Shown piece after piece: positions 12,486 to 62,561 of a DNA stretch of 64,000 nucleotides. The notes beneath the pieces are model-generated. The model did no database searches. It saw nothing but the letters and a program-made list of their open reading frames with translations, and had not been told where the DNA came from. Position 1 is the first letter of the stretch. Each line of letters opens with the position of its first letter. The stretch spans positions 389,341 to 453,340 of the forward strand of contig NW_004797604.1 of NCBI RefSeq assembly GCF_000002075.1. The letters are read 5' to 3'. A program made the position numbers and the translations under genes. This stretch comes from Aplysia californica. Taxonomy: Eukaryota.

Positions 12486-13649
12486 ACATGTGGAATTTTA
12501 ATATCTTTGATTCCACACACGAATGATTTAAATTATTCTGTGTTCATGTTTGAAATAATAACAAGGACAACTGTTTTGTACGTCCTTTCTAGATAAGCTG
12601 GTTGTGTGCTGTCAAAATGCATATTGCTATGACGAGAATCTGTTTTAAAAGTATGCACATTTTAGAAAAGCCAGTTGAGTGCTATTGAACCTGCATAGGA
12701 TCATTATGCTTTAGTTGTCACCGAATTTGAACACGATTTTCTATAGTATGCACATTTCTCTTTTCTAAAGTTTACATATCGTCGAGTTATAAGAAAAGGG
12801 GGCGTTTACCCTCGACCAATTTTAATGTTATCTGACACTCTCACACCCTTGCAGAAAGTCTACTCAGAATTTGGTAGATATAATCCCAAACGTGCCTAAC
12901 AGCCGATTAAGACTATTATAAGTGTGTCTTCTGTTATTTACATATTTCGTGGCCATTCCCACAGGCTATACAGCCATTCGATCCGTGAAGAGCCTAGAAG
13001 CGTTTTTGCGATTTAAAATTTCGTGATTATTTTATATGAATTTATCATTCCATATTGGATTCAAAAGTACATTTGTTGTATAATTTGGCGTATCTTTCGA
13101 TATTTCATTTTTACTTCTTTGTATGTCTTGTATAAATACGATGACATTTTATGCCGAAGCTGGCTGACTTAAAAGCCGGTCAACTGTATGAAATGGATTT
13201 AGTCGAGGTACTTTCAGGCCAGTCACGAAGGACTTTTTTCTTTTTCAATAGCCAGGCATAGGACAGACATTTCTGACGTCAGAAGGCTCTTTGGGAAAAA
13301 TGTCTGTTTAGTCGTGATATTATTGTCAGTAAAAAAAAATCCCCTACCCTTTCCTGAAACCTCAAATCTTTTCGGGGGTAAGATAGGGTGCAGTGGCTGT
13401 GGGGGTGCTCTGAGTTAATCTATTAATTCCTTGGTACACCAACAACCAGTCTATTTGCACTTTATAAAACATACAAGAGTCTGACTCCTATATTAACAAG
13501 TACTCTACGTCTGGCAGTTTAAAGTCAACTATACCCTTTAAAAAAATTAAACCTTGACTTCTGAAGTATGGAATTTTTGGAAAAGCAAACTGGTATAGGT
13601 TTAACGCCTGTGTCAACATAATACACTTATTTAAGAGGCAGGACCTCCG

Positions 13650-14146
13650 ACTTTAACGGTTTTTTTGTGTTTTACCGCGCTCACACCTACATGAGGACAT
13701 TTGAGCGCGAGGGACACATTAAACATTTTCAGTTGGGGCAGGAAATTTTGAACTTTGCCCGGTTGGCGGCCAAAGCCTACTCTTATCGATTTTAGACCAC
13801 CAAGGGACCTCTGAGATTTTTCTCTCTTGTCCGAAAAGGCTAGGCGTAGATCTTTCCTACCAGAGATTCATGGGTGTGGCTGAAAGACAACAGTAAAAGG
13901 AGCCAAGGATTAGCAGTAGAAAAGCTGCAGAAAGAGTCAGGATCCCAGAGGAGGGGACAAAGGAGGTGAGGGGGTGGGGGCAGAAAGTGGAACCGAAAGC
14001 AGACCACAGAACATAGCTAGAGAGCATGAAAGGAGGTGAAAGGAGACAATTTTAGAGAAGAAAAGTTTTCCGTCGCTACCTGGATTCGAACCCGAGACTT
14101 TGAATGAGTGCCGGACACCTTAACCTCCACACCACGAAAACCCCTG
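13650..14146 (-). mobile_element. tRNA-derived SINE family A
   Basis: Aligns with 2794-3306; B box GGTTCGAATCC on the minus strand. Confidence 0.82.
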
Positions 14147-16817
14147 AATGCAATTCTTTCAATCTTAATACCGACTTTTACTAATCTTGCGATTTTGATA
14201 GAACAGACAGAGCATTCGGTTTCTGACCTCACGATCTAAGTAAATCAAAACGTCCAAAAATGTTAGATAGAGCTTTATAATTCTACGACAGCGAAATGTC
14301 CGATCAGCAGCAGATGAAGGTCATTGTTGCAGGATGATTGGAACCCTCATTCACAGACCAGAAATAACAATTTTCGTATAAGAGAGAATACATTTGGCTT
14401 CTGCCTGCCGTTTTTAATAACAGATAAAGAAAACAGATGGGAAAATCTGCATGAACAACGAATCAATGCCCCCAAAACAACGAGCCTTCATCTTGTAAAC
14501 TATCAGGAAAGGACCGTTATAGTAAATGTTACAAATTCACCGGGGTAGTGCCGCACCGCACTTTGATCTATCTACGTTAGTACAAATGTATCAGTGTCTT
14601 TTTAAATATAAAAATACAATTCACTGGAGTACAGGCTTGCTGCACACACATGGTCTAAGTAGCCTGTTTGTCGATAAGGGCATTATACCTTTACGTCTTT
14701 ATACAGTTTCAAACTAATCCCAGGCCTGGCGCAAGAGACTGAACAATAATTAGGCAGAGTTTTTGTCCTATTTCTACATTGTGGCATGGTTCATAATAGT
14801 TAGTGCCCCGTATGTCTCAGCATTAGACACTTTCATTGCCTCGTTCTTCTTCATTCGAAAATTGTGACTTTGATGTAGATCTAGATCTAATCCATGCCAG
14901 CCTGAGCTGGCTCCTCAAGCAGGGCAGGAGTAGTCCTCCTAAATGACCCAGGTCACGGTAAAAGAGGGTTTAGGTTTATGTTCTGTCTCTTCGAGAGTGC
15001 TTCGGGAATCAGAGGTATGCGATTAGTGTCCTTGAAATATTTGACAAGAAATTGGCTTGGATTAGTAAAAAACATACGAACCCCCCCCCCCCAACTCCCC
15101 CCCCCCCCAAAAAAAAACAACAAAAAAACCCAAAACAACAACAACAAAAATCTCCAACTAAAACATAAGTATCATAAGTGTTTTCCTGTTCATAGATTCA
15201 TCGTAGTCCTCTAAACTGCAAACTAGCCTTAAGTTCAAGATATGGGACGACTGCATCCACGTTATTTTATACGTGACCTTTGCTGTATCAAACAGTACTG
15301 AGCGTTTGCCAAGAAGTTCGTTTCGATGAAGGAAAAACAAAACAAAAACGAACGACAATGAGGTGTTTCTTAAGTGTTTTCCTGTTCATAGATTCTTCTC
15401 ACTTTTCTAGAGTGCAAACTGTCCTCAAGTACATTAATCATAATAATAATATATATTACAACTACTGTCATAGTATGTGTCTGTATTATACTTGTAGATG
15501 TTGATTTTAAAACTGTGGCAGGGTTATCCTTGATGGCTTCCAATCTGTTGATGTTATGCTGAAAATGGCAATAGGTGCAGACTTCCTACCAATTGTGATT
15601 AACTTGCTCAGATTTTTGATTGGCTTTATAATTGAACTAAAAACAAGATAAGTGCTGTAGTTACTTACAAAAACAAATATTCGAATACTGATTACAGTAA
15701 AACCATTTATAATCTTTCACGGATAGCTCATCACAAAACATATTGCAGCTTCTAAACAGAGTCAACGCTCGCCGACATGATTTACTGTAAAAAAACAAAA
15801 TTTATTTGTCCGCAGAAGGAAAACCGTGACAATTTATTTATTTTTTCATAACAAATCTGTGGTAATTAATACATTTTTTCATTGTGGAAACGTTTTAAAG
15901 CAAATGAGTGTTTTATTCATGCGATGCGGACCAATGGCCTCAAACACTGAATAAACGTACTTACTTAGGCCTANNNNNNNNNNNNNNNNNNNNNNNNNNN
16001 NNNNNNNNNNNNNNNNNNNNNNNNNNNNNNNNNNNNNNNNNNNNNNNNNNNNNNNNNNNNNNNNNNNNNNNNNNNNNNNNNNNNNNNNNNNNNNNNNNNN
16101 NNNNNNNNNNNNNNNNNNNNNNNNGCCTGGGAATGGAAAACAAAACGGTGGAAGGTGGGATTGGGTAAAACAGTCGGCCAGCTGCTGTTCAGATGAGCTA
16201 AGCCCACCATTTTGAATTTTGTTTGTTTGTTTAGATTGCAGATTCTTAACCTTTGGTGTCAATTGCTTACACATAAAATGTTTGGTCGAAACCCGAAACT
16301 TTATTGTTGATAATATAAAGCAAGAAAAGATTCACAACGTGGGTACAGTTTGTGAAAGAAATGAACGTTTTTTTCCCTCTCATCTGAACATATGTGAGGC
16401 GTGCTGACACAATGAGTTACTTCTCACAGTCCACAAATGGAGATATTGACCAAAAATTTACAGTATAGGGTCAAATTTGTAAATTTTCTATAGATGCCAT
16501 ATTCTTTAAGTATAACACTCCTTATATTTCATACCTATAAATTGTAAAAACTTCACCTATAAGTGTGATGTATCTATTTCCTTAAGGCCTGAATCCGAGA
16601 AGTAACTCTTTTTGTCAGCTCGCTTCACATATTTTTTAGTTGCTTTCTAATCTTAAGACTTTTGCCCACCTTGCCAAAGATAGGTAATTTATAGCGACAG
16701 GTACTTCGCATGTAACATTTTAGACGTTTTTGTAAGTCCAGTTACATTCATTAGAACGCCCCCAGGCAGAAATATCAACCCGCAGTTTTGTTTCCCTGAG
16801 TATCGCCAGCTTGTTTG

Positions 16818-22800: not shown

Positions 22801-25300
22801 AGGCCAATGGTAAACAGCCAGGGGAGATGGCAATAGACAGTCACACTGGCCTGGCTGCTACGGCGTTGGGCAACCACCGAGTATCGTCTACTTGACCCAG
22901 CCCTTCAAACGGTAGGCCTAGTTAGCTGGGACTGCAAGGCTCTGGTAGTACCTCTAGGCTGTTTGCCCTTCAATATGGATGGCATTCTGGCAACCTCCTG
23001 CACCTAGATACTGATCTGATCGTCTTTTGTCTTTATCTTGCCGTCAGATTTTACCCAGGCGAGAGAGTGAGTCTGAAGTTTGTAATGCTCTTTCTCACTT
23101 TAAACAGAGTTTCGCGCATGTCAAACATCTTTTTTACCATTGAAACAATATCATCCAAACTGTACACAGCGGGTGGTATCAGTTTGTCTTAACTAGATCT
23201 ATATCATATTTTTCACATTTGAGACAAGACTAAAACAACTTGTCTTCATAAATTTAAATGTAATACCATAAATCTACGTCACGCCGAAAATGGAATTGTT
23301 CACAGCACTTCCCGCTTGTCACACACATTTTGCGTACACGTATGGCCTACGTCACAGCTCCCCTTTACATTGAGTAATGAACACTTTTTTGCCCTAAAGG
23401 TTCTCAAAACATAGTTCGATAAACGTAATCTTGCGATTAGAAATAAAAATGACGGACTTGCTTTTAAAAGAGATAATTGATAATGTCCCAGCTGTAAAGC
23501 TTTAAAAATCTGTAGAGAGTACCCACTGGGATTTTTTTTATTAGCATTTATTAAGGAATTTTTAAAGAATAAAAGTAACATGTGTTCTAAAAAATATTGA
23601 TCTGTTCAGACAAATTGATACAAGGCACTGTGGAAAAGCTGGAGAGCTTTATGTTCGATATTTGAGGAGATATTTGACAATAAGTTGCGCCACAAATTTT
23701 GACCGCACTATACATAACTTTTATCTTAGAAATACCATTTAGATAAGTATTGCTATACTTACAGGTGTCCTTCAGAAACATAAATGGGAGAACGCAATGA
23801 CCATCGACAAAAGATCGTGGGGTTTCAGACGAAATGCTCCCTTGGCCGATTATCTGAGCATTGAGGAACTGCTGCAGACATTCGTTATTACTATTAGGTA
23901 GGTTTTAATACAGCCTCTAACAATGTCTAACAGGATACCCCAGCGTCTGTCTCCCTGGACACTGAGATTGTCATTTGGAATGGTTGGGGTGAAGTGGGGT
24001 GGGGTGGGAGGGATTGGGGGCGCGTTTAATTAAGTTGCCTGAACCTTCATGTTTGATTTGATTTATACAAGACTGTTCACAGGTATTGGGTTTTTATTCT
24101 TTTTTGTTTTAACTGAGTTAAGTTCAGACAGTCTTATCGTATCTTATAGGCTACTTACCGTCTGTTTCCAGGAAGATTAAGATGAAATTGAAATATNNNN
24201 NNNNNNNNNNNNNNNNNNNNNNNNNNNNNNNNNNNNNNNNNNNNNNNNNNNNNNNNNNNNNNNNNNNNNNNNNNNNNNNNNNNNNNNNNNNNNNNNATTG
24301 GAGCTCTGTTAAGTCGCGTGAATCTCCAGTTTTTACTTAGTTTTAACAGAATGTAAGTTGACATTTGGTTTTAAGCTATCATTTTTTTCAGCTGCGGAGG
24401 CAACATGCTGATGAATATAGGACCTCCCAAACATGGCCAAATTTCTCCGATATTTGAGGAGCGACTTCTTCAGGTGGGGTCTTGGCTTAAGGTCAACGGC
24501 GAGGGTGTCTATGCTTCCAGGCCTTGGACTTACCAGAATGAGACTGTGACCAAAGGTGTATGGTGAGTAACATTCTATTAATTGTGTATGAACGGTATGC
24601 ATTTTGTGAAAAGGGCCAAGGGTGAACAAAGAACAATGTGGACCGATGACATCAAGGGATGGACTAGTGTAAGTTTGACAAAGTGTAAAATGGCAGCTAG
24701 CGACCGTAAGCACTGGCGGGTAACTAGTCGTCGACCCCTGAGCCAGAGATGACACCTCCACAGAGATAATCTACTAGGATTCTGAAAACATCTGATGAAG
24801 CATTTCTCTCTCTCAATCAACTCATGTATATTTGCTCTCTAACTTTATATTCGCATTGAAAGAAGTAGAAAGTCAGTAAGTATATGTATTCAAATTTAAT
24901 GTCAGTCTACATGTGTGTCTCTTTTAAAAAATAGCATTTGATAGTATATATCTGTCTTTATTGCCAGTTACATTTTTAACGGTAAGATACACTGCCACTT
25001 TATGTTTCTGAATCTCATGTTTATCCTACCTTCCCCCGTTGTAGGTACACAAAGAAAACCGATGCCAGTGGCACGTCCCTGTACGCTTTTGTCTTCCACT
25101 GGCCAGACACGGGGACTCTCAGCCTTGATTTACCTCAGGTATCTTCTGCTACCAAAGTATCTCTGCTGGGGTATCCGACCTTGTTCAACTACCATGCTCG
25201 TAGTCCCAGAGGGCTGGACATCTCCGTTCCTCCTATCGCTGTGAGCAAAATGCCTTGCCAGTGGGTGTGGGTCTTCAAGATCACCGCTGTGGTTAACTGA
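16890..25300 (+). CDS. FUCA: Alpha-L-fucosidase-like (GH29), tandem copy 2, variant active site (HCEG/YHV/FSDG); 8 exons, 466 aa
   Basis: Exons 16890-17260, 18346-18452, 19744-19874, 20141-20274, 21489-21586, 23765-23897, 24392-24562, 25045-25300. Same exon lengths as copy 1, GT..AG introns, no stops or frameshifts. Confidence 0.95.
18649..18955 (-). mobile_element. tRNA-derived CORE-like SINE (family D) with 14-bp TSD; specific to copy 2 intron 2
   Basis: TSD GTTTCTCCATTCAG at 18635-18648 and 18956-18969; minus-strand head GTGGCGTCGGTGGCCGTGTGG and TGTGTCCTTGGGAAAG; absent from copy 3. Confidence 0.8.
19461..19680 (+). mobile_element. SINE family D (paralog at 37883-38105; other copies 28245-28454 minus, 13590-13648 minus fragment, 50598-50730 plus)
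   Basis: tRNA-like head, CORE-like TGTGTCCTTaGGAAAGGCACTTTAC, and (CCATTTCA)n tail. Confidence 0.75.
21615..23000 (-). mobile_element. Internally deleted RTE LINE (5' UTR + APE endonuclease N-terminus + 3' end), copy 2 intron 5
   Basis: Minus-strand relic [31 protein letters not shown], fused to the RTE 3' terminus. The 5'-most part is inverted. Confidence 0.7.
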
Positions 25301-25929
25301 ATTTTGAGAAAATTATGATGTGTTGTAATGTTGTTGTAAAGGGCTTCTCCTGACTACAGATTCAAGCCTTGCAAAAAGTACTTATTATGCGGATATAACA
25401 TTTTATATCACAGATCAACGAGCTTTGAATTTTTGTTACAAAATGCCCCCCCCCCCCATAAAAAAAAAAAAAAAATAAATAAACACACAAAAAAAACAAC
25501 AACAAACAAAAATCGAATGTTTCAGTTGTAATTAGCAACCACAATTGTTTATAAGAACGATTGGTCTCGTAGTTTTTTGGTTTTCTTTGTTTACATGCTC
25601 TTTCTTTGAATGATTTTATGTTGTTTGGAATAAAATATAACAGTATTATGACATATTATCTTAGTACTGTTTGCATTTATCGGTTTATTCTCTGTTCTTG
25701 TTTTTCTGCTGTATGATATTATTTCATTCTTCTAGGTAGGCCTGTTGGTCATAATAAAAATATGTTTTTTTATATTATTAGTCCCCACCCAGTCAGTCCC
25801 TATAGAGGACATAAACAGTGTGCCCACCTTTGCCAAATTCTAAATGTTTAAAACGATGAGTGATAGATGACAGGGAAGATACCTATTATTAATCATTTCT
25901 TTTTCTTTTCTGTTACTATGAAAAGTGAA

Positions 25930-51444: not shown

Positions 51445-54400
51445 ATGGTATCGTTAACTTGTGCTGGTAAAGGCCCAGCCTTTGCCTTTCTAGTTTCAGC
51501 TTGTTTTCTTTCGTTGTTTAACGATGTCAACGGTTACGAGCCTAACTGGAAGTCGATAGATTCAAGGCCTCTGCCTGGTTGGTACGATGATGTCAAATTG
51601 GGTATCTTCGTCCACTGGGGAGTTTTTTCAGTCCCCAGTTTCTCTTCGGAGTGGTTCTGGTATAACTGGAAAGTCAGAGAATATCCGCCAATTATTGAAT
51701 TCATGGAGAAGAATTACAAGCTAGACTTTACGTACGCAGACTTTGGCAAGGAATTTACTGCTGAGTTTTTTGACGAGAAGAAATGGGCAGATCTGTTCGG
51801 GAAATCTGGTGCAAAGTAAATGTTAAAAAAAAAAACCCACCCTACTTTTTATATTATTATTAGCGTACGAGCAATTGGGTTAGGCTTAATGTGATGGTAT
51901 GCACAATGCATGCCCGTAAGGGCATACAAAAGTCTGTATCCTGACTATGAATACATTTTCTTAAAATGAAAGAAAAAATGGTTAATCTGATTTCTGTCTT
52001 TTCTGTCATTCTGATCTCAAACAAAAATATCTTTTCGATGCTGTTATAGTATAAACAAGACAGACTACTTAGAAGACGCCTGTACCACCCCTCGGGACTA
52101 TAAATTGGCTCTGTTGACGAAAATATGATCACAATAATGCTCCGACGTGCAGAACGGTGAAGGAAACAGACAGCAGAACAGTGTGGCTATAAACTTCTTC
52201 TACACACATCCCACTGCATATTTATTGTACATTCTGACATTTTTCCAAATCTGAGAAAAAATATTAAAGGACCGCGTTTCCACAGCGACGAAGATGCAGC
52301 AGTTGCAGCTTTCTACATTTTTGTTCTATTGACCTTTAGGGAAAGATTCAGTACCTTGATTTCAAACTTTCAGTAAATAAAACAAAATGAACAGAACACT
52401 TCTGAAAGGGCACATTTCCGAGTTTTGTTCGATTTCCCTGTAGATTATTCTTTAGTGACCTTTCTATGAATCAGGCAGCTGCCTTATTGCCATTTCGCTG
52501 GTTTTGAGACTTCTTAATCTCGAGGATAAAATGATCTATCTTTCACTTTCACAAATTACTTTCCTGGCTTAAGTAATTGCAACTGGGAACCGAAAATTGA
52601 CACCTGGGACGTAGCTATGTCGTTTTTTCTGTAATAAAGTGACTTCAGTCTATACGTTTCGATGTCCCTGTCAAACAACAGAGGTGGGTGGTTGGCACTT
52701 GCTCTGGTATGATCTGGTCCTTCTTTCTTGTTAAACTTCTATGGTCCTTATCTCTCGTCCTTCATATTGTGTTTGCTACTCTCTTGTAACATCTCTAATT
52801 TACAGCACTTAAAATATGACCTTATTGTGTTGCAAGTGCCTTAAAACACTTACTCCCCCCGAACCCCCCCAACCCCCCCCCCCAACAACAAAAAAAAAAG
52901 CAAAAACAAAACCTAACAGTTGTAATAGTGCTTTGAAACCTTAGTTTATGTTTATGATTCCGAAATGTGACGGAGAAGTGTATACATATCATCGCACTTC
53001 ACAAAGAAACAAAATAACGCATTACGAGTATCACAAAATTATGATGGGTTTTAAAGTATTCTTTTTTTTACTATAATGAATGAATGCCACCTTCTAAAAG
53101 TAGTATTTTTCCCTTTCAGGTATGTGGTCTTCGTAAGCAAGCATCATGAAGGATACACAAACTGGCCGTCCAAATATTCCTTCAGCTGGAACTCGATGGC
53201 CGTTGGGCCTAACAGAGACATTGTCGGTAAGGTGGCGTCGGTGGTCAAGCGGTTAGGCTACCGGGCTCGTTATCGGGAGGTTGCGGGTTTGGGGGTTCGA
53301 GCATGAGTCCAGAAGCTGTGTCCTTTGGACAGGCACTTGACTCGAATTTTCCTCATTTCACCCCGGTGTGAATGGGTACCCGGCCATAGACAGAGAAAGA
53401 TCTTGTCAGTACGTTGGGGTTTTAGCGCTTATAGAATTTCAGATTGCATTGTATGCCTACCTGGAAGTTGAGATTGTTTCAGAATGCTGTAAATAAGGTC
53501 CACCGGGGTAATACTATAGAATGTAAAGCTTATAGAGCTTGCTGCGGGACACTATACGCTTATTATTATCATTATCATTATCTTCATGATAATAATATCA
53601 ATTAATTTATGCTTGTTTATTAGGTACATAATCTAGATTTGGGATGGTTTGTTATGGATATTACAATGATATGGATACGGAAACTGCAAGGTTATTAAGA
53701 AGGGTGAACTGAATCCTAAATTATTATGTGTCAGTGTTCGCTCTTAGAGATTGTCATCTATTTATAATCACTTTTGGAGTTTTTCCCCAGGTGAGCTCAT
53801 GAACGCTACACGAAGCCGGACTGACCTGAGGTTTGGCCTGTATCACTCAATGTATGAGTGGTTCCACCCTTTGTATCTGAAGGATAAGGAATCTGGATAT
53901 AAGACGCAAGATTTTGTCAATGTGAGTTTGGATTAATAGTCGCCACACAAAGTGATTTTTTCTCCGTAAAAATAATCAAACCATGTTTGAAAACACTGCC
54001 CGTTTTAGGAGAATTTGATTACCCCATCCCTTGTTTTATGTTTTAGTAAGAGTTTTACGGCACTTGCAACACAATAAGGTCATATAAGAGCCGAAGATTA
54101 GAGGTGTTACAAGAGAGTAACAAACACAAAAAAGAAGGAGGAGATATCAGGACGATAGATGTTTGATAGGAGAGAAGAAGCAAACCATACCAGAGTACCC
54201 TCCAACCACCCATTTCAAGTATCGTGACGGACAAACTATTCCATTGACCTCGTGTGTAAACAGCTGGAGTCTTGTCTAATGAGGCGGCCTAGTGTGTCCC
54301 TGTACCTAGAACTCATGTTGTAGTAAACGATGAGATTGACGCTGGAGTTGACGGAGTACAGGAAGTAGGACACTGCCCAACACACGCCGTACGCGTAACC

Positions 54401-57400
54401 ATAGCGACGCCCGTAATAAAATTCTGGCAGCAACAGGTTGGCGATAGGGGTGGCCTGAGCTGGTGCAAAGCAAACTATGAATACAGTGGACACGATGACC
54501 ACCATCTTGACCACTCGCTTCTCTCGACTGAGCGACGACTCGGCTGTATTCGCCAACGTCACAACGCGAGCTCTGTACGTGACCCTATTCCGCCATTTTG
54601 TTTCGTTTCTCAGGGCAAGTATCAGAGTTCCGGTACACAGAAGTAGACTGATAAAAGAGATAATCTGCAAGCTCGTACAGAGGATGTTGGACACGATAAA
54701 TCTCATTGGTCTTACATTGACGGCATGGACATACAGCATGTATCTTGGAATTATATTCGTGCAAGGGTCTCGCTGGCCCACGAAACTAACAAATGACAAT
54801 GCGGGAAAAACAGTTGCCATAGATACTGTAAAGATGGAGGCGATGATAAAGATAGACCGACCAGGCGTGATTATTTCTTTGACCTTGAAGGGTTGTGTTA
54901 TGCACAAACAGCGCTCCACTGAGGCGAAAACTGCCGTACAGCAGCTGTTTAGATTGAGGCCGTAGATGATCCAGGTACCTGAAGAAAACCAAAAACATTA
55001 AACATTGTTAACGCAGGGATTTAAAGAACTTAACAAGGGTGATTGGTGCTTTTCACGACCGAAGTCTTTTCGATGTGTAGGAATTTCGTTATGTATCTGT
55101 TTTAAAAGCATGATAAATTCTCTAATATGTATAAGATAAAGTTCGAGACCTGAAAATCTGTCACTACGTGAATATATTTTCGCTATATTATGAGTGTTCG
55201 CTATGTGTATGCCTTCTTGTTCTCAAAAGGGGGTAAGGGTGTCATAATTACTTTACAGCGGAAACGCTGGATTTTGTTTTCCTAAAATGTATAGAATTGT
55301 GTACAGGTTAACAGACGTAGCTAGATTTCTAATTTCATCGATTTTGAAATTCACATTTATTTGAAACGTTTGCTGATTGCTTAAACCATTTGAATAACAA
55401 AACAATTTGTTTAAATTTAAAAAATGAAAAGAGCAAATGCATGTACAAAAAAAGTCCCCCCCACCCAAAAAACATAAGCTACCAAACCAAAAATAAAACC
55501 ACTTCAGCAATACACCCCCCCCCTTTCAGCAATCTAGCTTGAATAGATGTTTGCCATTAAAATAAAGGAGGTAGTGGTCGCCGGCATCAACGATGAAATT
55601 CGCCCAAAAATTGTGGCAAAAGTTAGGTGACTTTCAAGGCTTGCGTTTCTTTGGAAACTGGAAATCTACATATTATTTTGGTGCCTTTGTCCAACGTATT
55701 TCAGTAAAAATCCACCCAAAAAATGAATTTTTAAAAAGGACAGTATAAAAGGTGTTGGGAAAAAATATCAGTTTTACTTACAAGTATACCAAACCTGTGG
55801 CGGTGCGCGTAGATAGCCCAGTTCCATGTCTGATATGATTAAAGAGTAGACGATCAATAACATAAGATTTAGCATATCGGAGATTGCCAGTGAAAAGAGA
55901 GAGACGTTGACACTTTTCCGGAAACCTTGACGCCAAAATACAGCCAGGTTGATCGCATTGGCGCCAAGACCTGCCACACACACGGGAACAGCCATCAAAA
56001 GTATGAGGACACGGGTCATGTTTGGGCTTGGCAGAAGATCAGTTTTTTCAAAGACAATTGCCCCAGTTTTATCTCCAGGTAGTGTTAGGGAGGAGTGGTT
56101 TTGCAAGTCCATATCGGAGGACGAGTTTTGAAGTAACTCTGTATGGCACATTTCGCTGCCAGTTCCCATTCCTTTCACAAGGAGGCCTTCTCATTCTTGG
56201 AGGGAGTCATCGACACAGTTATGATTGTTTGCCTGCCACCGTTATAAAATAAGTCTTTGGCCGTGTACGTCGTTGTATTTATTTTCAATGTGTCTACTGT
56301 TTGAAGAGTGACGAGGGCACCAGAGGCATTGATAGCGCAGATTATACTATAGTTGTTGCCCTTCGACAAGAATTGAGCATTTTTTTCTTTTAAAAATAAA
56401 GGACTAATCGTTGAGTCTTTATTTCATTTTCCTTCAGTCTACAACATTTTCCCTTATAGTGAAATTCAAACAAGTTCTAGAACACTTTTACTCTATTATT
56501 AATCTATTGCAAAAGAAAACGGAGAGGTAAAGACTTTATGGCAAATATTAACCTCAGAATTTTCTCGAAATCGCACGTTTTCTCAAGGGAGATACAAAAA
56601 CCACAATGTGTTTATGTAGATCTATGGTAATTGTCGAGTGTAGGGCGGTAAGCGGCGAGTAAATATAACTGAGGCGACGTGTGTAACTTATGTTGACACA
56701 GGTTGGAAAACCAAAGTGAGCACCTGTCAGTCAGCGAATTATCCACTCTGCGCGACATTGTAACGTATGTAGAACGTGTCCTTCTGATGTTCGGGGTAAA
56801 CAAGAAGTATGATGTTGTCCACATACCCATACACAATTATATGTAAAAACTTAATATTCTATAGGCCTTTATCTTCTTTCTTTATAGGCGTTGCCCATCT
56901 CACCACAGGATGCAGCATCCAACAACGGCTTCCACTCCGTTATATCTGCCGCTCTCCATGTCTAGGTTGAGTTTGTCCAAGTTTCATCTAACAGAAGCTT
57001 CAGATGGCCACATTTCTTCACTAATCCTTCCAACTCTATGTCTGCATGATTAATCTTACACAGTGCTAGGCATTTTTTCTCAATGCCAGAGAGTGACAGG
57101 TTTTTTAAATGGTGAAACAAGAAGAATATAGAATAGAACAATAGAAGAGTATGCTGTTCCTCTGCTTGTTAGTTCTGCAATGAGGGTGTCAATAATCGGC
57201 AAAAAAAGACTAAATGTTGAATTTTCCTCTCACATTGGGAAGCACTTCTTCCCCCGATGTCGTCTTGTAACATTCTTACTGCTTCTGGTCTTCCACCCGA
57301 TCGCTTTCCCGTTTTTAGTCTCAATCCGGTGCGTCTTTCTGTCCACTCGTTATAGTTTACTCTACCCATGTTGCAAGCCCATTTATAATTTTTTTCGGAG

Positions 57401-60400
57401 TGTAAATTTTGTGATGTTTGTCACTCCTGTTTTCTTTCGTATTTTGTGTGCTTTATTTAATCTTATGCCCAGCATCTTCCTTTCCATTGCTCTTTGTATT
57501 GTCCTTACTTTCTTTATAATATTTCGGGAAAATGACCAAGTTGGACATCCATAGCTTATTGCTGGTACAAGGCACTGATTGGAAACTTGAATTCTCTGTG
57601 ATCTCGGGAGATTTTGATCTGTAAATATTTCTCTGTATCTTCCATAGGAGCTCCAAGCCGTGTGTATCCTTCTGTCCACTACAGTTTTTGCTCTCTCTTT
57701 CATACTTATTGTTTGACCTGGGTATTTGTATTCTGTCAATTTTTCAACATTCTTGTTTATAAATAATTAAGAAAAAACCACAAAAAACCAAACCAAAACA
57801 AAAACAAAAACAAAAAAACAAAAAACAACAACCCCCCAACAACCCCCCGCCCCTACACAAAACAAAACAAAACAAAAACCAACGACAAGAACCAACCCGT
57901 GAATCTGACTTCAAAATCAAGAGGCAGACCAAGAAGGACCTGGCTTGAAAACCCCATCCCTCAAAAGCCAAACCAAACCAAAACAAACAAAAACACCCCC
58001 CAAAAAAAAACAAAAAACAAAACATCAACAACCCTCCCCTCCCCCCCCCCACAACAAAAAAATATAAAAAACAACAAAAAACAGCAACCCAAAAACAAAT
58101 ACAAAAACACAGAGGTATTGAGAAAACTTTACGTTGTGGATTAAAAAAAAAATTAAAAACATGCTTTTCAGCTAAAAACATTGCCCGAATTGTATGAGAT
58201 TGTGGAGACCTACAAGCCTGAGGTGGTGTGGTCTGATGGGGACTGGGAAGCTCCGGATGTGTACTGGAAATCTCAGGAGTTCCTGGCTTGGCTCTACACC
58301 AATAGGTAGGCAGGACTCCTCACAGAACATAACGTTTTAACTCTTTGAATGTGAAGAGGACGCATACGTCTGATCAGCAGCAGATTAAAGATAATGTTGT
58401 GTTGCATTTCGAAGCTTCAGTAACGAATAAAAACAACATGAATTTCTTTGTTTGCAAGTTGATGCTTGCCATTAAAAAACAGAAATGAAAAATCTGAAAT
58501 GGTAACTAAGGTATTGTGCTTCTTTTTTAAAGTGCCCAAAAATGCGTGTCCTAAATGAGTCATCTCTTCACTGCCGTCTAGACGTAATTATTTGCTGATG
58601 GTTAATTGCTGTTGTTTTCGATAGTCATATAGAGGAACGTTTAGGAGATGTAAATCTACATGTTATTTGCGCGTGTGCAGTTGCTTTTTCTTACATAGGG
58701 CACTATGGCTTTGTTTGAATCTCTCTTGAATGATATTTATTTTGTCCGTTAAAAAACGTAAGATAGACGTCTCTGTTATGAAGGGGTTAACAGCACACAT
58801 GGATATAGTCAGCCTTTTGGGTTCAGGCTCAGAACGCTTGAGCTTGATTTCCATGAGGGATTCATCAATCTGCGTATAGCATCCCTCCTCATTCATGTTT
58901 TTCCCGCTTAGAAGGCATGGTCATAGAAGCTCTCTTTTTAAAGAGCTGCAACTTTTGAAGATTGATCAGAGACAATTTGTATCTTATAATATTGTATCAA
59001 TCTAATGAAGTCTTTGCATGGATTGAAAATTGCTGTTCGAAAAATGGTAGTTTGGGCCTCTCCACTGTATCGTTGCAAAACTTATAAACTAAGATGAAAA
59101 TCTAATTCTATTGTAAATGCCTGGGTTCATATAGTGCTGGAAAGAATCAAGACAAATAGATAGAAACAACATACGGAAAAAAATTGAAGTAAGACGCACC
59201 AGTGACGCCCTCCAAGTGTCCACGATATTGTCTGTTGGCGCAGACTGGGAGTTTGTTTTCTTCAGAAGTTAGTTAGTCTATCCGACTTTAGGATATTTTA
59301 CAGATTCACCGCGTTTGAATCACCGTATAATCAATGAACAAAAGCACTTTCCTCGGCTCAGCTAATCTTCTCCGAATAGATGTAGGAAAATTATTTTATC
59401 CTGAATCCATGGAGGTGTTATCTCTGAATCAGAGGTTGACGTGTAATGACCCCCCACCCCCCTGTGCTCATGGACACCAGATGCCCATTATAGCTTGCTC
59501 ACTTTCGATTGTTCGCGTTAAAAAAGTTCTAACTCATTTATTAAATTACTTATGTCCACAAAACTGCGCATGGCACTTCTGCAGGTCAGCAACAAAACAA
59601 AAATATATATTAAAAAAATCTTGGCCCAGTAATAACAAAGGTTTTATCTTTGGGCCCTATATTTAAAACGGCTTTTTGGATGCTTACACGAGATCACTAA
59701 TATAAATGCACTCTGCCCCCATATTTTAGCGTGAGCTTGTAGGTTTCATCCACAGGCTGTCTTGTCGTATCCACGTGCTCCACGTGAGTCTCGAAAATTA
59801 GTCATCCCGTCCCTTGAATCGTGTTTCTTTGCCGAACGTTGAAGTGTGGTGTTTGAGGAAAATAATAAGTCAACTTTTAAATGTTAATATTTCAGATGTA
59901 TGCCACTGATCCCCTATTATTGGAAGGGGAGGATTGCATTATCTATAAGGATGGAACAAATAATTTACAGTTCGAAAGATTCAATCGGAGATCTTACTAT
60001 TAATATTACCTAACAACTTTGGACACCTTTATCATCATCTTTTTCATATCAGATCAGTGACCTTGACGTACCCCACAACAGTACACCACCTGAAAAGCTG
60101 AGCCATACCAAATGAGGCCTGAAACATTTACAACAATGACAGAGGTCCTTCAGGTTTTCATGAATGCCTCAAGGAGTAGTGGGTTATCACAACTATTCTA
60201 CAAGAACTTCTTAGAAGAGAGGAAAGCCGAAAGGATTAATCGGAAGGGCTTTCTTTTTTAAAAACGATTGTATAATTAACTGTAAACTGGTCCTAAGTTC
60301 GTGATAAACAGTGTCTAAGGAGATATCTTGAATTTTTAGACCCGTTCTTGGCTATTGTAAGAGCCCTCTGATGTACCAAACTATATACTAAGCATAATGA

Positions 60401-62561
60401 TTATTGTTTTGTACATGCTCTTGCTTTTTTGGCCTGTTCTGAGCTGTGCTAAGAGCCATCTGCCGTATCAAACTATATACTCAACATGATATTATGCTTT
60501 GTACAAGCTCAGAGTTTGACTTCAAGCAAAAAAGGTATATACTGATAAATAAAAGATAAACGCTTTTCTTTGATGACGTTTAATCTGCTATTGATAACCT
60601 GAAGAAACGACCTTGGAATACACTTTTTAAAAGTTCGATAAGCCTGCATAGTTTTGTGATTTTCTTGTTTGTAACTGGGTTTAGGAAGAGTACGCCCTAT
60701 TATTAATGCTTGCAGCAACGAACATTTCTGATTCTAAAACTGTTCGCAGTCTTCTTCAATGATCTTTCCCTTATCGTTCTTTCTGTCTAACGAGATGTAC
60801 ATTTAGCATTGAGCAACAGCAAATTCTATTCAGTTATTGCAACTATGATCTGAATATTCTCTAATTAAGTTAGTCTTACCGCTTCTCCACTTGCCTACTT
60901 TGATTTATGAATGACTACGATGAGGATGGACGTCTTACTAGGTCATTCGTTACCCTTTCTATGCTGAGCCGTTTCCATTTACAGTCACCTCATTGTGCAG
61001 TCGAGGTATTTTTCCACCAGAGATTCAAATAAAGCCAATATAATTATGTTTCCCGTTTAAAAAAAAATAGGCAACTGCACAAGTTGGTGGGTGTTTGACA
61101 GGTGCTCTGGTGTGGTTTGCTCATTCTTTCCTATGAAACATCAATCGCTCGTATCTCTCCTCGATCTTTGTTATGTTTGAAAATATATTGAGATACTTCT
61201 AATCTGCTGCACTTATAATTATATGACCTTATTGTTTTGAAAGTGTCGCAAAATAAGAACAACAGATGTCTGCAAATACGATACTTCTGACAATCCACTA
61301 GATCTACAAACTAAGAGGTGGAATGAAAGTGAACTGGCTTGGAAGAACCCATGTGAATATTATACGTCTACTTAGAAGTGAAAGGGTTAAACCCGTTTGT
61401 TTAGTAAGTTTTCAAAGTTCTCAAACCACTTGTCTCGGTCCTGTGCGCCGTGGTAAACAGCGGCAAAACGTTGAAAGAGCCTGCAAACTTATACCACGCC
61501 ATATGTAATAATTTATTTATTATGTGAACCATAATGTGTGACACACATATCATATTGCAATTAAAAAGGATATACAACATTTTGGGCTCAGTACTTTTTA
61601 ATAGCTTGCCGTCAATTTCCCTTTGTGCCAACCCCCCCCCCCGCTCTCCCCCAGTTCGGTGAAGGACACGGTTGTTGTGAACGACCGGTGGGGAACGAAC
61701 GTGAGCTGTCATCACGGAGGCTTCTACACGTGCGGGGACCGCTTCAACCCAGGTCAGTTGAAAAAATACTATGAAATAACAAAACCCAACTCATTTTTAA
61801 AAATGTGTAAAAAATATAATTGTTTTATGCCCAATCGACACAAATCGTTTAGTAGGTGCGATTCTAATAGGGGGTGCACACTACGGCTGGGATCGGCCGA
61901 TCGGGCCCATCGCCCGACTCGATCTCCTCAAAAACAAACGTTTTCATTTTCGGGCGATCGAGTCAGGCGATCGGCCCGATCCAGCCGTAGTGGGCACCCC
62001 GTATAACCCTCCCTGTGGGGGCTAACCCGGTCTGAGAGGGATACAATGGTTTTTTTTATAGCAGAAAGACCGATGTGCTCGATTACACAAAAAAATGTTT
62101 CCACCAGGGAATCAAACTCACGTTTCCTGCATGCGACAATTAAGCGCTTTACCGCTATACCAGAGACACCTGTTGATTGATAAATGTAATAAATAGATGA
62201 CTGGCACGAAAATGTAGCCAGCTTTTTAAAAAACAACAGCGTCAAAATAAAAACTTATGGAATTGATCCTGAAGATGTGGTCTTAATCGACACCGAACTA
62301 GTTTGATTATCTACAACGGGATAATGTTGGTAAAGCAATTGTTCTCTTTGCACTGTTTCCTGAACTTCTATTTTTGTCAAACTGATTGTCTTATCAATGT
62401 GTTTTGATCACCATCTATATACACACAGGTGTCCTTCAGACACATAAATGGGAAAATGCAATGACCATCGACAAATACTCATGGGGCTACCGACGTGATG
62501 CTGCGCTGGACAGTTATTTGAGCATTGAGGAATTGCTGCAGACATTCATCATTACTATCAG
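51445..62561 (+). CDS. FUCA: Alpha-L-fucosidase (GH29), tandem copy 4, canonical active site; exons 1-6 only (3' partial)
   Basis: Exons 51445-51815, 53120-53226, 53791-53921, 58172-58305, 61655-61752, 62429-62561. KHHEG, YHSM, WSDG, NDRW and CGD are intact. Exons 7-8 were not found before 64000 and are presumed to lie beyond the window. Confidence 0.93.
53231..53580 (+). mobile_element. tRNA-derived CORE-like SINE immediately after the exon 2 donor of copy 4
   Basis: GGTGGCGTCGGTGGTCAAGCGG head, GGTTCGA B box, TGTGTCCTTTGGACAGGCACTT, CCCCGGTGTGAATGGGTACC, (TTA/TCA)n tail. Confidence 0.75.
54040..54215 (-). mobile_element. Short interspersed repeat family C (shares 3' tail with SINE A); other copies near 20345-20450, 38833-38940, 52683-52855, 61085-61255, 62570-62740, 63255-63425
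   Basis: Recurring GGGTGGTT..GCTCTGGTrTGGTTTGCTCC..CTTGTAACAyCTCTAAT..TATGACCTTATTG..CGTAAAA pattern. Confidence 0.65.
54236..56169 (-). CDS. Rhodopsin-class 7TM GPCR, gastropod chemosensory-receptor-like / FMRFamide-receptor-like; 2 exons, 376 aa; nested antisense in intron 3 of fucosidase copy 4
   Basis: Exon 1 is 56169-55782 (ATG with an upstream in-frame TGA; donor GTAAGT). Exon 2 is 54978-54236 (acceptor TTTTCTTCAG). The phases join in frame (..VWYT-C-TWIIYG..). TM1 [14 protein letters not shown]2 [11 protein letters not shown]3 [17 protein letters not shown]6 [23 protein letters not shown]7 [18 protein letters not shown]-terminal sequons NSS, NHS, NMT. Confidence 0.9.
57150..57745 (-). 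mobile_element. RTE-clade LINE ORF2 C-terminal relic upstream of the nested GPCR
   Basis: [50 protein letters not shown] second LINE 3' fragment lies near 56870-57100. Confidence 0.8.
61868..62003. mobile_element. Second copy of the Harbinger-like MITE, opposite orientation, TAA TSD
   Basis: Same TIR with two mismatches; TAA at 61865-61867 and 62004-62006. Confidence 0.85.

What the first reader, a model, noticed from the sequence alone, without database searches (positions are those of the whole stretch)
53922..58171. Intact chemoreceptor-like GPCR nested antisense in intron 3 of only one fucosidase paralog
Seen: intron 3 is 418, 266 and 263 nt in copies 1-3 but 4250 nt in copy 4, where it contains a complete two-exon 376-aa 7TM gene on the opposite strand. 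The ORF track splits it in two; the GTAAGT donor (55781) and CAG acceptor (54979) join it in frame. Established: ERC at TM3, PxKVK in ICL2 and NSSVN-x-x-x-Y at TM7 resemble the expanded rhodopsin-type chemosensory receptor families described in Aplysia. Inference: because it has its own intron it is not a simple retrocopy. It either moved in at the DNA level or was deleted from the other copies. Whether the receptor is functionally tied to the host (e.g. sensing dietary glycans in the gut) is speculation.
Basis: partly seen in the sequence, partly recalled or inferred. Interest (0 to 1): 0.75.

Follow-up and report, generated by a model that had tools for sequence, protein, structure and literature searches.

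The report
Receptor gene copied into fucosidase intron
An intact two-exon receptor gene sits backwards inside one intron of one of four sea-slug fucosidase genes, and it is likely a fairly young DNA-level copy from a receptor cluster elsewhere with no tie to its host, which is an ordinary kind of nested gene.

Summary
Intron 3 is 418, 266, 263 and 4250 nt. Copy 4's intron holds a minus-strand two-exon ORF (56169-55782 + 54978-54236; 376 aa, or 357 from the ATG its paralog uses) that passes Pfam 7tm_1 and Srw. The window's fucosidase exons give four Aplysia californica RefSeq proteins without mismatch. No record of the nested receptor was found. Its nearest relatives (88%, 67%) lie on another contig, next to an AcCRa-type receptor. 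It fails the defining tests of AcCRa, b and c and belongs to a small divergent clade. About 90%-identical contigs cover its exons and about 0.69 kb of upstream DNA, and the 88% paralog's model uses the same acceptor, so it moved as DNA. That duplication (dS up to about 0.28) is younger than copy 4's split from copies 1-3 (dS 0.44-0.55, introns unalignable), so gain is favoured over loss. Expression and the splice joint were not seen in four runs. A fucosidase-rich run showed only background over the receptor. No laid piece spans the two flanking repeats, so misassembly is unlikely but open. Intron-bearing antisense nested genes are the common type in Drosophila. Ordinary kind, unannotated member.

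The parts
55782..56169 (-). Receptor exon 1 (N-terminus, TM1, TM2, start of TM3); first ATG 56169, paralog-matched ATG 56112
   Evidence: 66% to P0004 residues 1-123
54979..55781 (-). Receptor intron, 803 nt, phase 1, GTAAGT...CAG
   Evidence: same acceptor position in the P0003 model; joint not seen in RNA
54236..54978 (-). Receptor exon 2 (TM3-TM7, helix 8, stop)
   Evidence: (7tm_1 48.6 bits, cut-off 30.5; Srw 46.1, cut-off 22.2)
56170..56856 (-). Upstream DNA shared at about 90% with a paralogous locus; likely carries the promoter. Left edge of the LINE marks the approximate end of shared DNA
   Evidence: X1 records 4 and 5 and depth table; end estimated
53791..53921 (+). Host fucosidase copy 4, exon 3
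58172..58305 (+). Host fucosidase copy 4, exon 4
53922..58171 (+). Host intron 3, 4250 nt
54040..54212 (.). Very high-copy short interspersed repeat, 24 nt past the receptor stop
   Evidence: 6 other copies in the window; depth in the millions
56870..57766 (-). Degenerate LINE-like remnants (RTE-like by recalled motif; no Pfam hit)
   Evidence: negative
57777..58115 (.). Low-complexity A/C tract
51445..62561 (+). Fucosidase copy 4, exons 1-6 (= XP_005102744.1; continues beyond the window)

Best explanation
This is an intact two-exon class A GPCR gene on the minus strand of intron 3 of fucosidase copy 4, which likely arrived as a roughly 2.6-kb DNA-level duplicate from a receptor cluster on another contig after the fucosidase copies had split, and which likely works independently of its host. 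Shown: ORF, splice sites, Pfam class, paralogs on a different contig, shared upstream DNA. Inferred: the block (about 54.25-56.86 kb) carried both exons, the intron and about 0.69 kb of upstream DNA, so it probably brought its own promoter; it was probably captured during repair of a break next to old repeats in the intron; the antisense orientation hides its splice sites from the host transcript, which removes the whole 4250 nt. The protein is predicted to be a G-protein-coupled chemosensory or peptide receptor made in few cells, as proposed for its distant AcCR relatives. Ligand, tissue and expression are untested.
For: Nearest proteins: P0003 88%, P0004 67%, P0005 51% of 33 hits. P0003, P0004 and the AcCRa-motif protein P0018 share a 1,785,478-nt contig; the six fucosidase records share an 840,560-nt contig. 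Tree of 34 rows: (P0005,(P0004,(nested,P0003))) with SH-aLRT 100/98/98, so the sister and first outgroup both sit in the cluster (quick tree). The P0003 model splices into the same acceptor position and the P0005 model begins just after it. Run X1 (probably DNA) holds paralog-like contigs at single-locus depth: 55901-56168 (29 differences in 268), 56150-56375 (16 and 4 gaps in 230), 56527-56823 (27 and 6 gaps in 297); depth falls to one locus from about 56856. Receptor pair dS at most about 0.28 and dN/dS about 0.2 (hand sum from X5 record 22, 29 differences in 294 nt, and 13 residue differences over 68 synonymous sites). Copy 4 against copies 1-3: dS 0.44-0.55, and no intron-3 alignment above the shuffled range in any useful way. 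7 of the 9 listed coding variants are synonymous (P 0.001). Model of P0004: 7 long helices plus helix 8, pLDDT 86.7, best matches class A receptors. In X4 the receptor exons and non-exon DNA both lie at depth 2-6 against thousands on fucosidase exons.
Against: No run showed the 55782/54978 joint; X10 (14.8 million polyA reads) had no reads on receptor or fucosidase exons. The paralog's DNA was seen only as laid contigs at 88% or better, so its assignment to P0003 and both block ends are indirect, and most of the paralog's intron did not reach 88%. No target-site duplication or repeat pair marks the ends. No listed piece crosses the short repeat (54059-54253) or the A/C tract (57777-58115), and 159,000 pieces were not shown. 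At 54290, 54293 and 54374 the only X1 contig counted differs from the window, and the like X4 contig leaves the window at 54253; this fits P0004's ending but is not proven. The two contigs could be neighbours on one chromosome. The 9 variants are a subset of 218 rows and mix alleles with paralogs. The careful tree did not finish.
Confidence: 0.72

Rival explanations
1. Relocation in progress: the nested copy is the working gene and its parent P0003 in the cluster is decaying.
For: The P0003 model lacks TM2 and the loop after it; 10 of 14 polarisable exon-2 changes fall on P0003 and 4 on the nested copy, with 15 of 29 ambiguous; branch lengths 0.092 against 0.042. Compatible with the best explanation.
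Against: The missing stretch may be a gene-model error or an assembly gap; P0003's DNA could not be read; 10 against 4 is weak.
Confidence: 0.25
2. The nested copy is an unexpressed duplicate that has not yet decayed.
For: No spliced reads in 4 of 4 runs laid; no protein record in two searches.
Against: Open frame over 376 codons with both splice sites after up to about 0.28 dS; dN/dS about 0.2; short branch. The tissues of the runs are unknown, and AcCR transcripts were not detected in CNS or skin by RT-PCR (PMC2700072).
Confidence: 0.12
3. Misassembly: the receptor block belongs to the cluster and was joined into this intron by error.
For: Repeats flank it on both sides and no listed contig crosses them.
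Against: No N in the region; it needs two false joins at two unlike repeats; X1 record 1 (0 differences) and X5 record 16 (3 differences) join copy-4 exon 3 to the intron start, and X1 records 6-8 chain 56527-57490; the locus differs by about 10% from the cluster copy.
Confidence: 0.07
4. The receptor was in intron 3 of the ancestral fucosidase and was deleted from copies 1-3, or the nested copy is the source of the cluster copy.
For: Cannot be excluded without outgroup genomes; conversion between receptor paralogs could make them look young.
Against: It needs at least two clean losses with no remnant; non-coding DNA is about 90% identical to the cluster copy while copy 4's introns no longer align to those of copies 1-3; the outgroup P0004 is in the cluster.
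Confidence: 0.07
5. Functional coupling: the receptor senses dietary glycans in the gut and is co-regulated with, or damps, the host fucosidase.
For: Only position. One hint of a damped host: in X4 the copy-4 letter at 53891 was absent from depth 5356, and at 58270 it made up at most 104.5 of 10,629.
Against: Receptor at background depth in the fucosidase-rich run; present in 1 of 4 copies and young; neutral landing or interference is the usual reading for nested genes (PMC5174743). Contigs drop rare variants and that animal may carry another allele.
Confidence: 0.04
6. Retroposition or LINE 3' transduction.
For: LINE-like remnants lie upstream on the same strand.
Against: The intron is kept; no poly(A) signal or tail after the stop and no target-site duplication; the paralog does not share the LINE at 88%.
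Confidence: 0.03

Closest known systems
Aplysia californica XP_005094258.1 (P0003) and XP_005094263.1 (P0004), with XP_005103326.1 (P0005)
   Same: 88%, 67% and 51% identity over exon 2; one clade; the P0003 model uses the same acceptor position
   Different: They lie on other contigs; their names ('capa receptor-like', 'neuromedin-U receptor 1') look automatic, since identity to solved peptide receptors is remote (best E 1.8e-8; 16-23% in the fold search)
AcCRa/b/c candidate chemoreceptors of Aplysia (Cummins et al. 2009, PMC2700072)
   Same: 7TM rhodopsin type, ERCLC after TM3, NSS-N in TM7, size 357-376 aa, relatives in a genomic cluster beside an AcCRa-motif gene
   Different: Intron at the start of TM3 rather than in TM2 (a) or absent (b, c); TM3 signature differs; about 35% identity; none of 10 clade motifs found in the paper's three supplements as held, while the control motif was found 53 times
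Opposite-strand nested genes of animals (Assis 2016, PMC5174743; PMC13343718)
   Same: Whole coding sequence inside an intron, opposite strand, young duplicate; 71.3% of D. melanogaster nestings are opposite-strand and only 37% of those internal genes are intronless; nesting covers about 10% of fly and 5% of mammalian genes
   Different: Those papers say nesting typically arises through RNA-mediated duplicates; this one appears DNA-mediated, and three uninvaded host paralogs give an internal control
Pfam 7TM_GPCR_Srw (PF10324) gastropod expansions
   Same: Passes the cut-off; more than 1,500 relatives at E <= 0.001 (1557)
   Different: Only P0003 exceeds 50% among the best 150 listed for query P0004; the clade sits on a long stem (1.65)

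Membership tests
Class A (rhodopsin-type) GPCR | Pfam 7tm_1 above curated cut-off | tested here: met
   exon 2: 48.6 bits against 30.5, profile 71-260 of 260
Class A (rhodopsin-type) GPCR | Seven TM helices and helix 8 | tested here: met
   by proxy: model of the 67% paralog P0004; direct hydropathy gave 5 of 7 at threshold
Class A (rhodopsin-type) GPCR | D/ERY-like motif with Arg at the end of TM3 | tested here: met
   ERC
Class A (rhodopsin-type) GPCR | G-protein coupling on ligand binding | not testable with these tools
   needs a cell assay
AcCRa | Conserved intron between ISLM and GLAV in TM2 | tested here: not met
   that position lies inside exon 1; the intron is at the start of TM3
AcCRa | FITAFITFERCLCIA signature; 70-95% identity within the subfamily | tested here: not met
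   [15 protein letters not shown]; 35% to P0018, which I class as a-type by its motifs only
AcCRb | Intronless; WITAFVTFERCLCIA; 43-92% identity | tested here: not met
   one intron; signature differs; 35% to P0006, which carries the signature
AcCRc | Uninterrupted coding region | tested here: not met
   one intron
AcCRc | Monophyly with the 24 listed genes | not tested
   the paper's sequences were not in my tree
Chemosensory receptor (function) | Expression in rhinophore or tentacle sensory cells | tested here: inconclusive
   no spliced reads in 4 runs of unknown tissue
Pfam Srw | PF10324 above cut-off | tested here: met
   46.1 bits against 22.2
Nested (internal) gene | Whole coding sequence inside one intron of another gene | tested here: met
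   54236-56169 within 53922-58171
Nested (internal) gene | Host transcript spliced across it | tested here: inconclusive
   RefSeq model P0048 reads across it; the 4250-nt joint in X4 has 13+18 differences and matches copy 2 or 3 (13+17, 14+18), not copy 4
Retrocopy | No intron, poly(A) tail, target-site duplication | tested here: not met

The most novel reading that the evidence does not exclude
The receptor belongs to an undescribed Aplysia clade with its own intron position; the nested copy has replaced a decaying parent and become tied to the fucosidase array, sensing algal fucose-containing glycans in the gut while damping or tracking its host copy.
Probability: 0.04. Interest if true: 0.7.

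Novelty: new member of a known kind. Interest (0 to 1): 0.22.

Why it matters
It adds an apparently unannotated intact receptor to a small divergent Aplysia clade and shows one route by which chemoreceptor-like genes leave their clusters. With three uninvaded host paralogs and a parent copy elsewhere, the locus is a tidy natural control for whether nesting changes the expression of host or guest. It does not point to a new mechanism.

Tried and rejected
No whole genome is held, so the paralog loci could not be read and related species could not be checked. No RNA holder was listed for the stretch; this says nothing on expression. The 53921-58172 joint in X4 looked like host splicing but comes from copy 2 or 3. 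Intron 3 of copies 1-3 against copy 4: no blastn hit; local scores 18-29 against shuffled maxima 24-36, one of 12 comparisons beating all 100 shuffles by one point in the low-complexity tract, so no breakpoint could be read from the host side. Target-site duplication search: only chance A-rich matches. Four plus-strand AATAAA in the intron are about what an AT-rich 4.25 kb gives, so not taken as host truncation. Rfam: 0 matches at E <= 0.05. Weak tblastn hits at 58769-58949, 47558-47623, 43452-43595 and 48084-48293 (E 0.02 or worse) were not counted as remnants. The idea that the 90% contigs are alleles was rejected: per-locus depth is about 50 throughout and an 88% RefSeq paralog exists on another contig. 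Earlier findings: 3 look-ups, nothing. Paper searches that returned no paper; two searches returned listings with no title on this locus. First exon fits were wrong and were replaced.
Full report
Observation. The window holds four tandem alpha-L-fucosidase genes (Pfam GH29 domains). Their exon models translate to A. californica RefSeq proteins P0046, P0047, P0042 and P0048 with 0 mismatches, so this is the A. californica fucosidase array. Intron 3 is 418, 266, 263 and 4250 nt. Other introns vary from 411 to 3349 nt, so length alone is not striking; the content is. On the minus strand, 56169-55782 and 54978-54236 join through a GTAAGT donor and a CAG acceptor into 376 codons without a stop. The join is colinear with paralog P0004, whose first Met matches the ATG at 56112 (357 aa).

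What the protein is. Exon 2 passes Pfam 7tm_1 and Srw. Of 33 hits among 327 candidates, the best are A. californica P0003 (88%), P0004 (67%) and P0005 (51%); the other 30 are 27-38% identical and, where named, are gastropod proteins. An exon-1 search found only P0004 and P0003 among 762 candidates. No record of the nested protein itself appeared, so it seems unannotated in this collection. In a quick tree of 34 rows (the careful search did not finish) the four form one clade on a long stem, with the nested copy sister to P0003. A model of P0004 has seven long helices plus helix 8 and matches class A receptors at 16-23% identity; the nested protein itself was not folded. Against the criteria in PMC2700072 (I read section 6, passages and motif searches of three supplements) it is not AcCRa, b or c: the intron position and the TM3 signature differ. 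Supplement cells over 400 characters are cut and the alignment PDF gave 524 characters, so absence from that list is likely rather than certain. It looks like those candidate chemoreceptors without being a member; no ligand is known to me for any of them.

How it got there. P0003, P0004 and the AcCRa-motif protein P0018 share a 1,785,478-nt contig, while the fucosidases share an 840,560-nt contig. The P0003 model enters exon 2 at the same position and the P0005 model starts just after it, which suggests that the intron is a clade feature. Laying four runs at 88% likeness showed, in the probable DNA run X1, paralog-like contigs at single-locus depth over exon 1 and over upstream DNA to 56823, at about 90% identity; depth falls to one locus from about 56856, at the 3' edge of LINE-like remnants. 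Shared upstream DNA and a kept intron mean a DNA-level copy of about 2.6 kb. The ends are indirect, and no target-site duplication was found; capture during break repair is my inference.

Gain or loss. If X5 record 22 is P0003's gene, the pair differ at 29 of 294 nt with 13 residue changes, which gives dS up to about 0.28 and dN/dS about 0.2 (hand sum). Copy 4 differs from copies 1-3 by dS 0.44-0.55 and shares no alignable intron with them apart from dispersed repeats, while copies 2 and 3 (dS 0.235) still align in all five introns compared. The receptor duplication is therefore about as young as the copy 2/3 split and younger than copy 4's origin. Loss would need two clean deletions plus conversion with a distant locus. 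Conversion among the fucosidases would only make them older than they look.

Expression. Not shown. X10 (raw polyA reads) had none on receptor or fucosidase exons. X4 had fucosidase exons at depth in the thousands but receptor exons and non-exon DNA alike at 2-6, with no 55782/54978 joint among the 15 joints shown (266 not shown). The 4250-nt joint in X4 comes from copy 2 or 3, and copy-4 letters were absent or about 1% there. So host splicing across the receptor rests on the RefSeq model only. Tissues are unknown and contigs drop rare variants.

Assembly. X1 and X5 contigs join copy-4 exon 3 to the intron start, one X1 contig spans 54584-55804 with 5 differences, and three chain 56527-57490. 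None listed crosses the short repeat or the A/C tract. An error would need two false joins at unlike repeats in a gap-free stretch; I put it at 0.07.

Comparison. In passages of PMC13343718 and PMC5174743, nesting covers about 10% of fly and 5% of mammalian genes, 71.3% of fly nestings are opposite-strand, and only 37% of those internal genes lack introns; nesting usually starts with a young duplicate landing in an intron. This locus fits that pattern. Searches found no paper on this locus; some searches were seen as listings apart from the papers named. The library lacks most subscription journals.

Verdict. Real, and probably a working gene, but a new member of a known kind. Interest 0.22.

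Noticed in passing
window 3813-3943 against 53791-53921; 4362-4495 against 58172-58305: Fucosidase copies 1 and 4 differ at only 3 of 131 nt in exon 3 (background 14.7%, P 2e-6) and 10 of 134 in exon 4; identity runs about 16 nt into intron 2 and 10 nt into intron 3, then stops. Likely exon-scale gene conversion.
   Followed up: partly
P0003 (XP_005094258.1): The RefSeq model skips TM2 and carries 10 of 14 polarisable changes; the parent copy may be broken or mis-modelled.
   Followed up: partly
window 53891 and 58270, run X4: Copy-4 letters absent or about 1% in a run rich in transcripts of copies 1 and 2/3; the host copy may be weakly expressed.
   Followed up: partly
window 54040-54212; also 20346, 38834, 52685, 61088, 62592, 63256: Short repeat of very high copy number, abundant in polyA reads with A-tailed loose ends; SINE-like.
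   Followed up: no
window 50846-50995 and 61865-62012: Two related palindromic elements of about 150 nt, MITE-like.
   Followed up: no
window 58663-58920, minus strand: Short ORF that recalls an ISXO2/Merlin transposase motif (recalled; Pfam gave no such hit).
   Followed up: partly
window 10439-16388 against 25039-32983: The 3' exon and spacer after copies 1 and 2 align at 85-87% although the coding exons of those copies differ by dS 0.48: a mosaic from unequal crossing-over or conversion.
   Followed up: no
RefSeq P0043, P0049: A fifth fucosidase (P0043) and an alternative first exon for copy 1 (P0049) are recorded on the same contig but have no exact first exon in the window.
   Followed up: no
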